Positions 29,881 through 31,769 of a stretch of DNA of 64,000 bases are shown piece by piece. Origin of the DNA: Malacoraja senta (lineage: Eukaryota); contig CM075988.1 in the NCBI GenBank assembly GCA_038087875.1, positions 8,744,001-8,808,000 on the forward strand. Direction: 5' to 3'. The translations under genes were made by a program, and so were the position numbers. Position 1 is the stretch's first letter, and each line of letters begins with the position of its first letter. The notes below the pieces were generated by a model. The model ran no database searches, was not told the DNA's origin, and saw only the letters and a list, made by a program, of their open reading frames with translations.

Positions 29881-30859
29881 ATATGTTTTATTTGTGCTGA
29901 TACACTGTGGACTGCCAATAATCTAGCACCTTCAGGAATTTGGTGGCAGATTTTCTGAATTATCAGATGTTACTTGTGTTAATATACCGCAATGCATTTT
30001 CAGTTTGCTTTTTTTCCGATGTTGCACCGTACTATAACAAATATTTCAGTGAATCAATGGCTTTAAGCGGAGTGTGGGAAACAGGCCCTGGTGAGTTTAG
30101 AATAAGTGCAGGAAACATCAACCGGCGAGCCATCAGCGTTTCTGAACAACTCTTACGCTGAATCATGAGAATCCCTGCGCAATCAGATAGTAGATTAATG
30201 GAGTTCTATTGTATCAAGCAATGAATAACCTCAAGGAGGTCTGTAATTGTGTTATACTCCCTAGTGCTCTCTGGACCACTGTTCAAATTAGTTTAAAGAT
30301 GGGGAGCTGGAAGAAATGATCTCTATCTTTGCTATCGTGAAGGTGTGAGTGAATGTAAGATCAGCCCTGCTGCAAAGCCACTCTATGAGATTCCGACTAT
30401 GTGTGTCCCACAGTGGAACAGAGGGTGATGTATTGTGAACCCTGGTGCTGTCTGTGTTTAATTTTCATGTGACAGCATGTGCTTCCTTTGATGCTCAAGT
30501 TTCCAGATACAGCCCAAAGACATGTTAATAACTCAGTTTGCCACAGCAAATTGCCCCCAGTACAGATGGCCAACTGAGAGCGAATGAGTGTGGGGTGGGA
30601 CTAATGTATTGATATGGAGTCATGATGCAGCTTTACAGGACTTTGATTTGGTTGCATTTGGCTTTGGAAAGGGTGCAGAGGAAGTTTACCACAATGCTCC
30701 CTTGATTTAGAAGGGTTAAGCTACAAGGAGAGGTTGGACTGACTTGGATTGTTTTCATTGGAACGCCAAAGTTTGAGGAGAAACCTGATGGATGTATATA
30801 AAATGATGAGAGGCATAGATAGGGTAGACAGTCAGAAGATGGACACAAAAAGCTGGAGT

Positions 30860-31043
30860 CTTCTTCTTTTCGTGTCCATCTTGTTACAAATATTGACCTC
30901 GCTGCATCCTCCATCCTGAAAAGAACTCAAGCTTCCGGCAACAATCAGTGAAAGCCATCACTTGTCGCAATAGTGGTAGCAGAATTAGCTCAGGATACTT
31001 CCAGTTTCCAGACCCGCGACGTGGACGCTTCTGCTATGGGGCC
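30860..31043 (-). mobile_element. 184-bp ribozyme-headed retroposon (Vingi/Ingi- or RTE-type non-autonomous element)
   Basis: Perfect 11-bp TSD aaagctggagt at 30849-30859 and 31044-31054; 3' end ...GGACACGAAAAGAAGAAG; 5' end is an HDV-like fold. Confidence 0.9.
30977..31043 (-). ncRNA. HDV-like (CPEB3-like) self-cleaving ribozyme, 67 nt
   Basis: GGCCCC A UAGCAGAA GCG UCCACGU CGC GGGUCU GG AAACUGGAAGUAUCCUGAG CUAA UUCUGCUA: 8-bp P2, 3-bp P3, CC/GG P1.1, imperfect P1 and P4, putative catalytic C at 30988. Confidence 0.85.
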
Positions 31044-31769
31044 AAAGCTGGAGTAATTCTGCGGAACAGGCAGCATCTCTGGAGAGAAGGAATGGGTGAC
31101 GTTTCTGGTCGAGACCCTTCCAAACAGACTGAGGGTCTCGACCTGAAACATCACCCATTCCTTCTCTCTAGAGATGCTGCCTGTCCCACTGAGTTATTCC
31201 AGCGTTTTGTGACTATCTTTGGTTTAAACCAGCATCTGCAGTTCCTTCCTACACATGTAGACAGTCAGAACCTTTTTACCAGATTGGATAGATCAAATAC
31301 TTTAAGGTGAGAGGGGCAAAGTTTAAAAGAGATATGCAGGGAAAGTTTTTATACGCAGAGGGCAGTGAGTGCCGGGGAAGGTTGAAGCAGATACGTTAGT
31401 GGCATTTAAAAGACTTTTAGATAGGCACATGGATTTGTGGGGAATATTGGATATGGATTATGTGCAGGTTGTTAAGTGATGTTCAATTAACATTGTTTCA
31501 GTAAAAGGCTTTAGAAGGGATTGATTTAAACTGCATTGAATTGAGCAAAGTGTTTCCTATGTAGATTGCAGCTTCTAATTCATTTAAATTACTGATCAGA
31601 ACAGCAAGTCCAATAATGGACCATTTTAAGACAGCATTTTAACCTTTTTTTGACCTTGACCAATGCTACAATACTATTTGCAGTTAATTTTAACAACCTC
31701 CATTTTAATTGTTAAGCAAATAATTGGCAGTTTAAACCAACTTTAGTAAATTTGTAACTTAGAATTATT

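What the first reader, a model, noticed from the sequence alone, without database searches (positions are those of the whole stretch)
30860..31043. A CPEB3-like HDV ribozyme forms the 5' end of a short mobile retroposon
Seen: a 184-bp minus-strand insert with a perfect 11-bp TSD (aaagctggagt) and an (AAG)n tail. Its first 67 nt read GGCCCC-A-UAGCAGAA-GCG-UCCACGU-CGC-GGGUCU-GG-AAACUGGAAGUAUCCUGAG-CUAA-UUCUGCUA. This folds into the HDV double pseudoknot: 8-bp P2, P3 GCG/CGC, P1.1 CC/GG, a 5-6 bp P1 with one imperfection, a P4 hairpin with one mismatch, and a J4/2 C at 30988. Established: HDV-like ribozymes occur at the 5' ends of R2, RTE and L1Tc/Ingi retrotransposons. From memory, the mammalian CPEB3 intronic ribozyme contains AGCAGAAGCGUUCACGUCGC and ends AAUUCUGCUG. 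The element matches 19/20 nt at 31035-31016 plus AAUUCUGCU, and has a compensatory U-A for C-G at the end of P2. P2 sequence is not fixed by the fold, so this identity is hard to explain by structure alone. Inference: this may be a mobile relative of the element that gave rise to the single-copy CPEB3 ribozyme.
Basis: partly seen in the sequence, partly recalled or inferred. Interest (0 to 1): 0.92.

Follow-up and report, generated by a model that had tools for sequence, protein, structure and literature searches.

The report
CPEB3-like ribozyme heading mobile retroposons
A short jumping-DNA element in a cartilaginous fish genome starts with a probable self-cutting RNA motif very like the one conserved in the mammalian memory gene CPEB3, which suggests that the mammalian ribozyme came from such a mobile element.

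Summary
Window 30860-31043 (minus strand) is a 184-nt insert with an exact 11-nt target-site duplication and an (AAG)n tail. Its first 67 nt fit the HDV double-pseudoknot fold.

It is an old, damaged copy of a ~192-nt non-autonomous retroposon, "SINE A". A junction 24-mer finds 1,519 matches in this 1.94-Gb cartilaginous-fish genome. Copies start exactly at G1 of the ribozyme, with duplications abutting it.

The window copy scores 29.8 bits on Rfam CPEB3_ribozyme (cut-off 35). Sixteen of 20 other copies pass the cut-off.

The genome holds at least five more ribozyme-headed families. One is a young 3.1-kb RTE-type LINE with a 934-aa endonuclease-RT ORF. Its head scores 64 bits, and its last 16 nt plus (AAG)n match the SINE's end. 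Across the six families, 17 of 26 helix pairs show compensatory changes.

An RTE from metagenome contigs carries a similar head. Nineteen other RTE relatives checked gave no CPEB3-model hit; two carry weak, different HDV-like heads.

Self-cleavage is inferred, not shown. RNA reads showed no pile-up of 5' ends at G1. The architecture is a known kind. I found no paper reporting the sequence link to CPEB3, and that link makes the ribozyme's origin testable.

The parts
31044..31054 (-). Upstream copy of the 11-nt target-site duplication. It reads ACTCCAGCTTT on the element's strand and abuts G1.
   Evidence: Exact direct repeat with 30849-30859; sequence read.
30977..31043 (-). HDV-like (CPEB3-like) ribozyme head, 67 nt. 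G1 = 31043. P1 is 31038-31043 with 31010-31015. P2 is 31029-31036 with 30977-30984. P3 is 31026-31028 with 31016-31018. L3 is 31019-31025. The P1.1 GG is 31008-31009. A rudimentary P4 lies in 30989-31007. The J4/2 C is 30988.
   Evidence: RF00622 29.8 bits, E 3.2e-6. The helices are supported by covariation across six families. The family boundary lies at G1.
31012..31012 (-). Private G-to-T change (nt 32) that breaks the C3-G32 pair of P1 in this copy.
   Evidence: All 29 other aligned copies have G here.
30877..30976 (-). Element body of unknown origin. It carries an 8-nt deletion just after P2 relative to most copies.
   Evidence: Alignment of 30 copies. No similarity to LINE B or to the L080 element above shuffled controls. 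No tRNA and no Rfam family.
30860..30876 (-). 3' terminal motif GACACGAAAAG plus (AAG)2, the presumed recognition and priming end for the RTE reverse transcriptase.
   Evidence: Identical over 16 nt to the extreme 3' end of LINE B.
30849..30859 (-). Downstream copy of the 11-nt target-site duplication.

Best explanation
The insert is a fossil copy of a ~192-nt non-autonomous retroposon family, here called SINE A, in a cartilaginous-fish genome.

Proposed mechanism:
1. A source copy has no recognisable promoter of its own and is transcribed as part of a longer RNA.
2. The 67-nt HDV-type double-pseudoknot ribozyme at its start cuts that RNA just 5' of G1, which sets the 5' end of the template.
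3. The endonuclease-reverse transcriptase of an RTE-clade LINE recognises the shared 3' end, GACACGAAAAG(AAG)n. LINE B of the same genome is the candidate: 934-aa single ORF, same 3' end.
4. That enzyme nicks the target and reverse-transcribes the RNA to its very end. This gives 11-14-bp target-site duplications that abut G1.

Shown: the anatomy, copy number, exact 5' boundary, shared 3' end, covariation of the fold and the Rfam CPEB3 hits.

Inferred: self-cleavage, read-through transcription and which LINE does the mobilising.

The ribozyme belongs to a sequence lineage shared by at least six retroposon families here, by an RTE from another source, and by the mammalian CPEB3 ribozyme.
For: Anatomy: an exact 11-nt duplication and an (AAG)n tail.

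Family size: the junction 24-mer has 1,519 matches and the head 24-mer 1,282, both with up to 2 mismatches. Reversed-pattern controls gave 0.

5' boundary at G1:
- Among the 30 best-scoring copies (26 independent), flanks diverge directly upstream of GGCCCC. A duplication of 7 nt or more ends exactly at -1 in 24 of 30.
- In 20 copies picked only by an internal 24-mer (18 independent), 19 have the head at the expected place and 16 have a duplication ending at -1. One is 5'-truncated.

Fold: on 25 natural heads from six families, 86.8% of 612 cells pair, against 32-47% when partners are slid. Seventeen of 26 pairs have changes on both sides. The covariation score is 0.391, against at most 0.116 slid, and 0 of 500 shuffles reach it. 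The P1.1 C-G pair is kept in 25 of 25.

Rfam: only RF00622 hits. Scores are 29.8 bits for the window copy, 35 or more in 16 of 20 sister copies, and 52.8-64.2 for LINE B heads.

Partner LINE:
- The LINE B ORF has Exo_endo_phos and RVT_1 domains.
- Three further full copies are 97-98% identical to the reference copy, L041.
- Two of the four full copies have duplications abutting G1.
- Its last 16 nt equal the SINE's.

No tRNA-like head was found.
Against: - No cleavage assay exists.
- RNA reads from 4 runs cover the SINE body at depth about 30-190, but the tool listed no place where many molecules begin, so there is no excess of 5' ends at G1. The loose-ends table was cut off, with 244 rows not shown.
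- The window copy is below the Rfam cut-off and has a broken P1 pair.
- P4 of family A is only 5 bp with a U-U mismatch.
- The nested-only MFE fold is no better than shuffles (z = -0.48).
- The 3' match to LINE B is only 16 nt (score 32 against a shuffled maximum of 28).
- No LINE in this genome carries the SINE's own head variant.
- Pol II or other internal promoters were not tested.
Confidence: 0.8

Rival explanations
1. The likeness to the mammalian CPEB3 ribozyme is convergence within the constraints of the HDV fold, not shared ancestry.
For: HDV-like ribozymes share constrained core positions (L3, J4/2 C, G-rich P1). Weak hits in more distant RTE relatives (L153, L134, L149; 13-18 bits on my model) keep UUCACGU and CUAA while the rest differs. 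Only the 78-nt Rfam model stood in for mammalian sequences.
Against: - P2 and P4 are free to vary here: 5 of 8 P2 pairs and 7 of 7 P4 pairs have compensatory changes.
- Even so, the L080 head matches the CPEB3 consensus at 35 of the first 37 ribozyme positions (my count from the alignment).
- Family D copies carry the same P4 stem letters as the model consensus.
- Nineteen other RTE relatives gave no RF00622 hit: 17 scanned at E <= 0.1 and L153 and L134 at E <= 1. Two of them have different HDV-like heads that weakly match RF02682 instead.
- No other Rfam HDV family hit any head.
Confidence: 0.15
2. The heads are homologous with the CPEB3 ribozyme, but the direction is reversed: a retroposon captured a host intronic ribozyme and spread it.
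For: Retroposons can pick up host sequence. Heads look modular, since RTE proteins about equally distant from LINE B carry different heads (L080 against L078).
Against: The head occurs in at least six families in a cartilaginous fish and in an RTE from unrelated metagenome contigs. The passages I read place the CPEB3 ribozyme in mammals only (PMC8233481, PMC10919898). No RF00622 hit in this genome scored above the LINE heads, although only 59 of about 102,000 rough candidates were scored.
Confidence: 0.07
3. The 5' end at G1 is set by transcription initiation or another RNA-processing step, and the ribozyme-like fold is inactive baggage.
For: No 5'-end pile-up at G1 in RNA reads. Family A has a weak P4. 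Activity is untested.
Against: Compensatory changes keep P1, P2, P3 and P4 across families whose bodies are unrelated. The same boundary at the first P1 base holds for LINE B, for the L080 element and, as read from flanks only, for family F. No tRNA-type head was found.
Confidence: 0.07

Closest known systems
Mammalian CPEB3 intronic ribozyme (Rfam RF00622)
   Same: Same HDV-type double pseudoknot. It is the only Rfam model that hits these heads. P3, L3 (one change in family A), the inner P2 and the J4/2 to P2 3' strand are near-identical. LINE B heads score up to 64.2 bits and family D shares the P4 stem letters.
   Different: The elements here are multi-copy and mobile, sit at the 5' end of retroposons, and are in a cartilaginous fish rather than in a CPEB3 intron. 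Family A has a 6-bp P1 with swapped G/C pairs, a 2-bp CC/GG P1.1 and a rudimentary P4. The window copy is below the curated score.
HDV-like ribozymes at the 5' ends of non-LTR retrotransposons (R2, R4, RTE, L1Tc/Ingi, LOA). Ruminski 2011, Eickbush 2010 and Sanchez-Luque 2011 are cited through passages of PMC5786205, PMC3774820 and PMC7761336; the Ruminski paper itself is not held.
   Same: The ribozyme is the first sequence of the element, and the cleavage site coincides with the 5' junction. LINE B is an RTE-type single-ORF element whose ATG lies about 100 nt after G1.
   Different: In the library I could search, I found no report of RTE heads with sequence-level likeness to CPEB3, nor of such elements in cartilaginous fishes.
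Ribozyme-headed non-autonomous elements: NARTc of Trypanosoma cruzi (PMC3383444, abstract), R2-derived internally deleted elements (title seen in a reference list), and 'bipartite nonautonomous LINEs' of RTE (PMC5786205, passages)
   Same: A short non-coding element that keeps a LINE-type ribozyme head and a LINE 3' end, and depends on a LINE enzyme.
   Different: SINE A is not a simple internal deletion of LINE B. Its head is a different variant, its ~100-nt body matches neither LINE, and only 16 nt plus the microsatellite are shared at the 3' end.
Minimal, P4-less HDV-like ribozymes (theta ribozymes; PMC10879173, abstract only)
   Same: Family F of this genome (2,673 head matches) has no P4 at all.
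   Different: Family F heads a eukaryotic retroposon. Theta ribozymes lie next to tRNAs in gut phages.

Membership tests
HDV-like self-cleaving ribozyme (fold class) | Nested double pseudoknot: P1, P1.1, P2, P3 (and P4) | tested here: met
   86.8% of cells paired against 32-47% when slid. Seventeen of 26 pairs have compensatory change. P1.1 C-G is kept in 25 of 25. In the window copy one P1 pair is broken.
HDV-like self-cleaving ribozyme (fold class) | Catalytic C in J4/2, and a G at +1 closing P1 (G-U wobble) | tested here: met
   The C at alignment column 72 is nearly invariant in A1 and lies at window 30988. The G1-U pair is present in all 5 family A rows (pair 5-39).
HDV-like self-cleaving ribozyme (fold class) | Mg2+-dependent self-scission 5' of G1 | not testable with these tools
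   The only indirect evidence is that element 5' ends sit at G1. RNA reads gave no 5'-end pile-up.
Rfam RF00622 CPEB3_ribozyme | Covariance-model score at or above the gathering score (35 bits) | tested here: not met
   The window copy scores 29.8 bits. For the family as a whole the feature is met: 16 of 20 sister copies score 35.1-42.8 and LINE B heads 52.8-64.2.
Rfam RF00622 CPEB3_ribozyme | Single-copy element in an intron of CPEB3, in mammals | tested here: not met
   The element is multi-copy (1,519 junction matches). The window is at C12:8.77 Mb, whereas the CPEB ZZ-domain exons are on C2259, C2128, C15 and C17. The host is a cartilaginous fish by COX1.
Non-autonomous partner of an RTE-clade LINE | Target-site duplications and a microsatellite tail like the LINE's | tested here: met
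   Duplications in 24 of 30 and 16 of 20 copies. The (AAG)n tail occurs on both the SINE and LINE B.
Non-autonomous partner of an RTE-clade LINE | 3' end shared with the autonomous element | tested here: inconclusive
   The identity is 16 nt and sits at the extreme 3' end of both. The score is 32 against a shuffled maximum of 28.
Non-autonomous partner of an RTE-clade LINE | Mobilisation by that LINE's protein | not testable with these tools
   Inferred from the shared 3' end and the intact 934-aa ORF.
Classical SINE (pol III head) | tRNA-, 7SL- or 5S-derived head | tested here: not met
   No tRNA by ARAGORN. The only Rfam hit with E below 1 is the ribozyme.

The most novel reading that the evidence does not exclude
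The mammalian CPEB3 ribozyme is the domesticated 5' head of an RTE-clade retroposon. The families found here, and the L080-type RTE from other sources, are living mobile members of the same ribozyme lineage. Its origin, age and ancestral sequence can then be reconstructed from retroposons rather than from mammals alone.
Probability: 0.6. Interest if true: 0.85.

Novelty: new member of a known kind. Interest (0 to 1): 0.7.

Why it matters
The CPEB3 ribozyme is one of very few conserved self-cleaving RNAs in mammals and has been tied to memory. In the paper I read, it could be traced only to the placental-marsupial split (PMC8233481, passages). I found no paper that says where it came from.

Here its close sequence relatives sit at the 5' ends of mobile RTE-type elements, where such a ribozyme has a known job. 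That turns an open question into ordinary comparative and bench work. It also supplies dozens of natural variants, including P4-less forms, for studying how this fold tolerates change.

Tried and rejected
- Whole-window Rfam scan at gathering threshold: 0 hits. The copy is sub-threshold, so I went on with a local E-value scan.
- Nested MFE fold of the head: z = -0.48. This is uninformative because pseudoknots are not modelled.
- RNA evidence: one lay of 4 RNA runs on a near-intact copy (L016:1300-1900). The family is present in RNA, but no place was listed where many molecules begin, so this gives no support for in vivo cleavage.
- Search for a LINE carrying the SINE's own head variant, using the head 17-mer followed by non-SINE letters: 1 hit, which is a mutated SINE copy.
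- SINE body against LINE B and the L080 element: nothing above shuffles except the 3' terminal 16 nt.
- tRNA-derived head: none.
- Earlier findings of this scan: nothing by place, words or sequence.
- Literature: eight searches found no paper linking the CPEB3 ribozyme sequence to RTE or fish retroposons. One search was swamped by its own design and says little. Ruminski 2011, Webb 2009 and Webb & Luptak 2011 are not held, so a statement there would have escaped me.
- The CPEB paralogue loci found were not scanned for an intronic ribozyme.
- Of the 51 genome hits to RF00622 I inspected the top 30. The remaining 21 (32-37 bits) were not looked at.

Full report
**The observation**

Read on the minus strand, window 31043-30860 is a 184-nt insert. 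It is flanked by an exact 11-nt direct repeat at 31044-31054 and 30849-30859 and ends in GACACGAAAAGAAGAAG.

The 20-mer at 31016-31035 is unique in the window, and no match arose in 100 shuffles even with three mismatches allowed. Rfam at gathering thresholds finds nothing in the window. A local scan gives one meaningful hit: RF00622 CPEB3_ribozyme at 30978-51 (minus strand), full length, 29.8 bits (cut-off 35), E 3.2e-6. The printed alignment confirms the near-identity over P2-P3-L3-P3 (one change, in L3) and over AAUUCUGCU.

A nested-only MFE fold is no better than shuffles. That is expected for a pseudoknotted RNA.

**It is one copy of a large family**

The window lies in a 1.94-Gb assembly. 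The 184-mer has 1,931 first-look candidates, and all 40 that were scored are full-length at 90-93% identity.

- A 24-mer spanning the ribozyme/body junction has 1,519 matches with up to 2 mismatches, and 0 for the reversed control.
- A 24-mer starting at G1 has 1,282 matches.

In the alignment of the 30 best copies, similarity stops dead upstream of GGCCCC. The other 29 copies read GGGGCT where the window copy has GGGTCT. The family therefore has a perfect 6-bp P1 closed by a G-U pair, and the window copy's 'imperfection' is a private mutation at 31012. The window copy also lacks 8 nt just after P2.

Target-site duplications of 7 nt or more, typically 11-14 nt, end exactly at position -1 in 24 of these 30 copies. 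Four of the 30 are duplicated loci. Those 30 were chosen by score, which favours intact heads. I therefore fetched the first 20 genomic matches to the internal 24-mer, 18 of them independent:

- 19 of 20 have the head at the expected place.
- 16 of 20 have a duplication ending at -1.
- 1 is 5'-truncated.
- 3 show no duplication.

A T precedes G1 in 24 of 30 and in 15 of 19 copies. It lies inside the duplication, so it belongs to the target, not to the element.

**The host and the partner**

Mitochondrial COX1 places the genome among cartilaginous fishes, with 97% and 95% identity to cluster representatives from two shark genera.

Searching the genome with RF00622 gave about 102,000 rough candidates. 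Fifty-nine were scored, 51 had E <= 1e-3 and 39 were over the cut-off. I looked at the top 30. Twelve of them (52.8-64.2 bits for the best) belong to another family, 'LINE B'.

LINE B is a 3.11-3.14-kb element:

- Its first bases form the ribozyme.
- An ATG about 100 nt later opens a 934-aa frame with endonuclease and reverse-transcriptase domains.
- Its 3' end is ...AAAGACACGAAAAG(AAG)n.
- Three further full copies are 97-98% identical to the reference copy, L041.
- Two of the four full copies have duplications abutting the first G.
- Only 23 matches to its head 24-mer exist, some of them in odd tandem partial heads.
- Its protein has hundreds of relatives at about 50-63% identity in insects, amphioxus, echinoderms, bony fishes and a lizard. 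That makes it a widespread RTE clade.

SINE A shares with LINE B its last 16 nt plus the (AAG)n tail, and nothing else. No LINE in this genome carries SINE A's own head variant. LINE B is the best candidate for the mobilising enzyme, but this is an inference.

**Six families, one fold**

The remaining hits fall into further families.

| Family | Features |
|---|---|
| C | Long P4 |
| D | Decayed copies; P4 stem letters equal those of the CPEB3 model consensus; a P2 A-to-G change is matched by U-to-C on the other strand |
| E | Short P4 |
| F | No P4 at all; 2,673 head matches |

These descriptions rest. As read from their flanks, family F copies also have (AAG)n tails and duplications abutting the first G.

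I tested an alignment of 25 natural heads against the full pseudoknotted structure:

- 86.8% of 612 cells pair, against 32-47% when partners are slid by 1-3 columns.
- 17 of 26 pairs show changes on both sides (P1 4 of 7, P2 5 of 8, P3 1 of 3, P4 7 of 7).
- The covariation score is 0.391, against at most 0.116 slid. No shuffle in 500 reaches it.
- The P1.1 C-G pair is kept in all 25.

The sequences are related and I drew the structure partly from them, so the shuffle control overstates significance. The slid control and the count of compensatory pairs are the fairer measures. The fold is conserved while the helix sequences change, which is what a working ribozyme predicts.

**Beyond this genome**

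An alignment of RTE proteins found 543 relatives in metagenome contigs, of which 80 loci were kept. A covariance model built from the 25 heads hit three contigs holding one element at 70.6 bits (L080-L082). Rfam gives that head 55.6 bits on RF00622.

The L080 element has these features:

- Its head sits just upstream of a decayed RTE frame that is 51% identical to LINE B.
- A duplication abuts its first G.
- The element ends GACACGAA(TCA)n.
- By my count from the printed alignment, 35 of the first 37 ribozyme positions equal the CPEB3 consensus.
- It shares with SINE A the CC in L3 and the GG after P1.

I scanned seventeen other relatives that include the 5' region. They gave no RF00622 hit at E <= 0.1. 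Two (L120, L078) have different HDV-like heads with weak, sub-threshold matches to RF02682. L153 and L134, scanned with Rfam at E <= 1, also gave no RF00622 hit. So HDV-like heads are common in this RTE clade, but CPEB3-like sequence is not a general property of them.

**What is not shown**

Self-cleavage is inferred. I laid four RNA runs on a near-intact copy.

- The SINE body is covered at depth about 30-190, on both strands.
- Unique flank bins are near zero, so the family is present in RNA.
- The tool listed no place where many molecules begin, so there is no excess of 5' ends at G1.
- The loose-ends table was truncated.

Poly(A)-selected and single-cell libraries are poor at catching such ends, and most copies are mutated. 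Even so, this is a result against efficient cleavage of the bulk of transcribed copies.

The window copy, with a broken P1 pair and a sub-threshold score, is most likely dead. Only the Rfam model stood in for mammalian sequences, so flanks of the CPEB3 ribozyme could not be compared. The CPEB loci of this genome were not scanned. The top of the RF00622 genome search held nothing above the LINE heads, but few candidates were scored.

**Comparison and novelty**

HDV-like ribozymes at the 5' ends of R2, R4, RTE, L1Tc/Ingi and LOA elements are established (passages of PMC5786205, PMC3774820 and PMC7761336). So are non-autonomous elements that keep such a head: NARTc (PMC3383444 abstract) and RTE 'bipartite nonautonomous LINEs' (PMC5786205). 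The architecture is therefore a new member of a known kind.

I could not find the sequence link to CPEB3 in print. Eight full-text searches and passages of five papers give no statement on it. The study of ancestral CPEB3 ribozymes contains none of the words retrotransposon, origin or transpos-. Three key papers are not held, so priority cannot be excluded.

**Verdict**

- I put 0.8 on the ribozyme-headed, RTE-dependent retroposon mechanism.
- I put about 0.6 on the bolder reading that the mammalian CPEB3 ribozyme descends from this retroposon head lineage.

Noticed in passing
window 30831-30852 and 30866-30887: The 22 nt just beyond the downstream duplication are 86% complementary to the SINE's own 3' end, so the insertion made a hairpin. 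One search picked it up as a weak miRNA-like hit. The flank belongs to an abundant repeat with 6 matches in the window. Whether this is chance, target choice or shared ancestry of the two repeats is open.
   Followed up: partly
window 31050-31118 and 31132-31200: The host repeat into which the SINE inserted has 69-nt inverted arms, 88% complementary and 13 nt apart.
   Followed up: no
L055, L057, L061-L064 (own genome): Family F is a short retroposon, about 165 nt as read from the flanks. Its HDV-like head has no P4, and it carries an (AAG)n tail and duplications abutting the first G. Its head 24-mer has 2,673 matches.
   Followed up: partly
L046, L048, L050, L056, L059 (own genome): Family D heads are the closest to the CPEB3 consensus, including the P4 stem. 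The copies share only about 100 nt and then run into unrelated sequence. This is unusual for LINE-mobilised elements, which are normally truncated at the 5' end.
   Followed up: partly
G000:C8:937661-937813 and C4:35489714-35489815 (L045): There are tandem arrays of partial LINE B heads with a 26-nt period upstream of a LINE B copy.
   Followed up: no
L120:1089-1160 and L078:1269-1333 (metagenome contigs): Other RTE relatives carry different HDV-like heads upstream of their ORFs, with sub-threshold matches to RF02682 (33.1 and 30.9 bits against a cut-off of 44).
   Followed up: no
alignment A1, columns 83-88: A conserved ACCAC follows the P2 3' strand in families A, D, E and F and in the L080 head; family C copies read ACCACC there. 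LINE B reads ACCAAAC instead.
   Followed up: no
G000:C2915 and C6182: The mitochondrial genome is present as at least four tandem units of 16,723 nt in one contig, and once more in another contig. This is probably an assembly concatemer.
   Followed up: no
L016:1502-1717: In run X24, reads join 1502 to 1717/1718 with about 12 other letters between. They look like transcripts of sister copies of the host repeat that lack the SINE.
   Followed up: no
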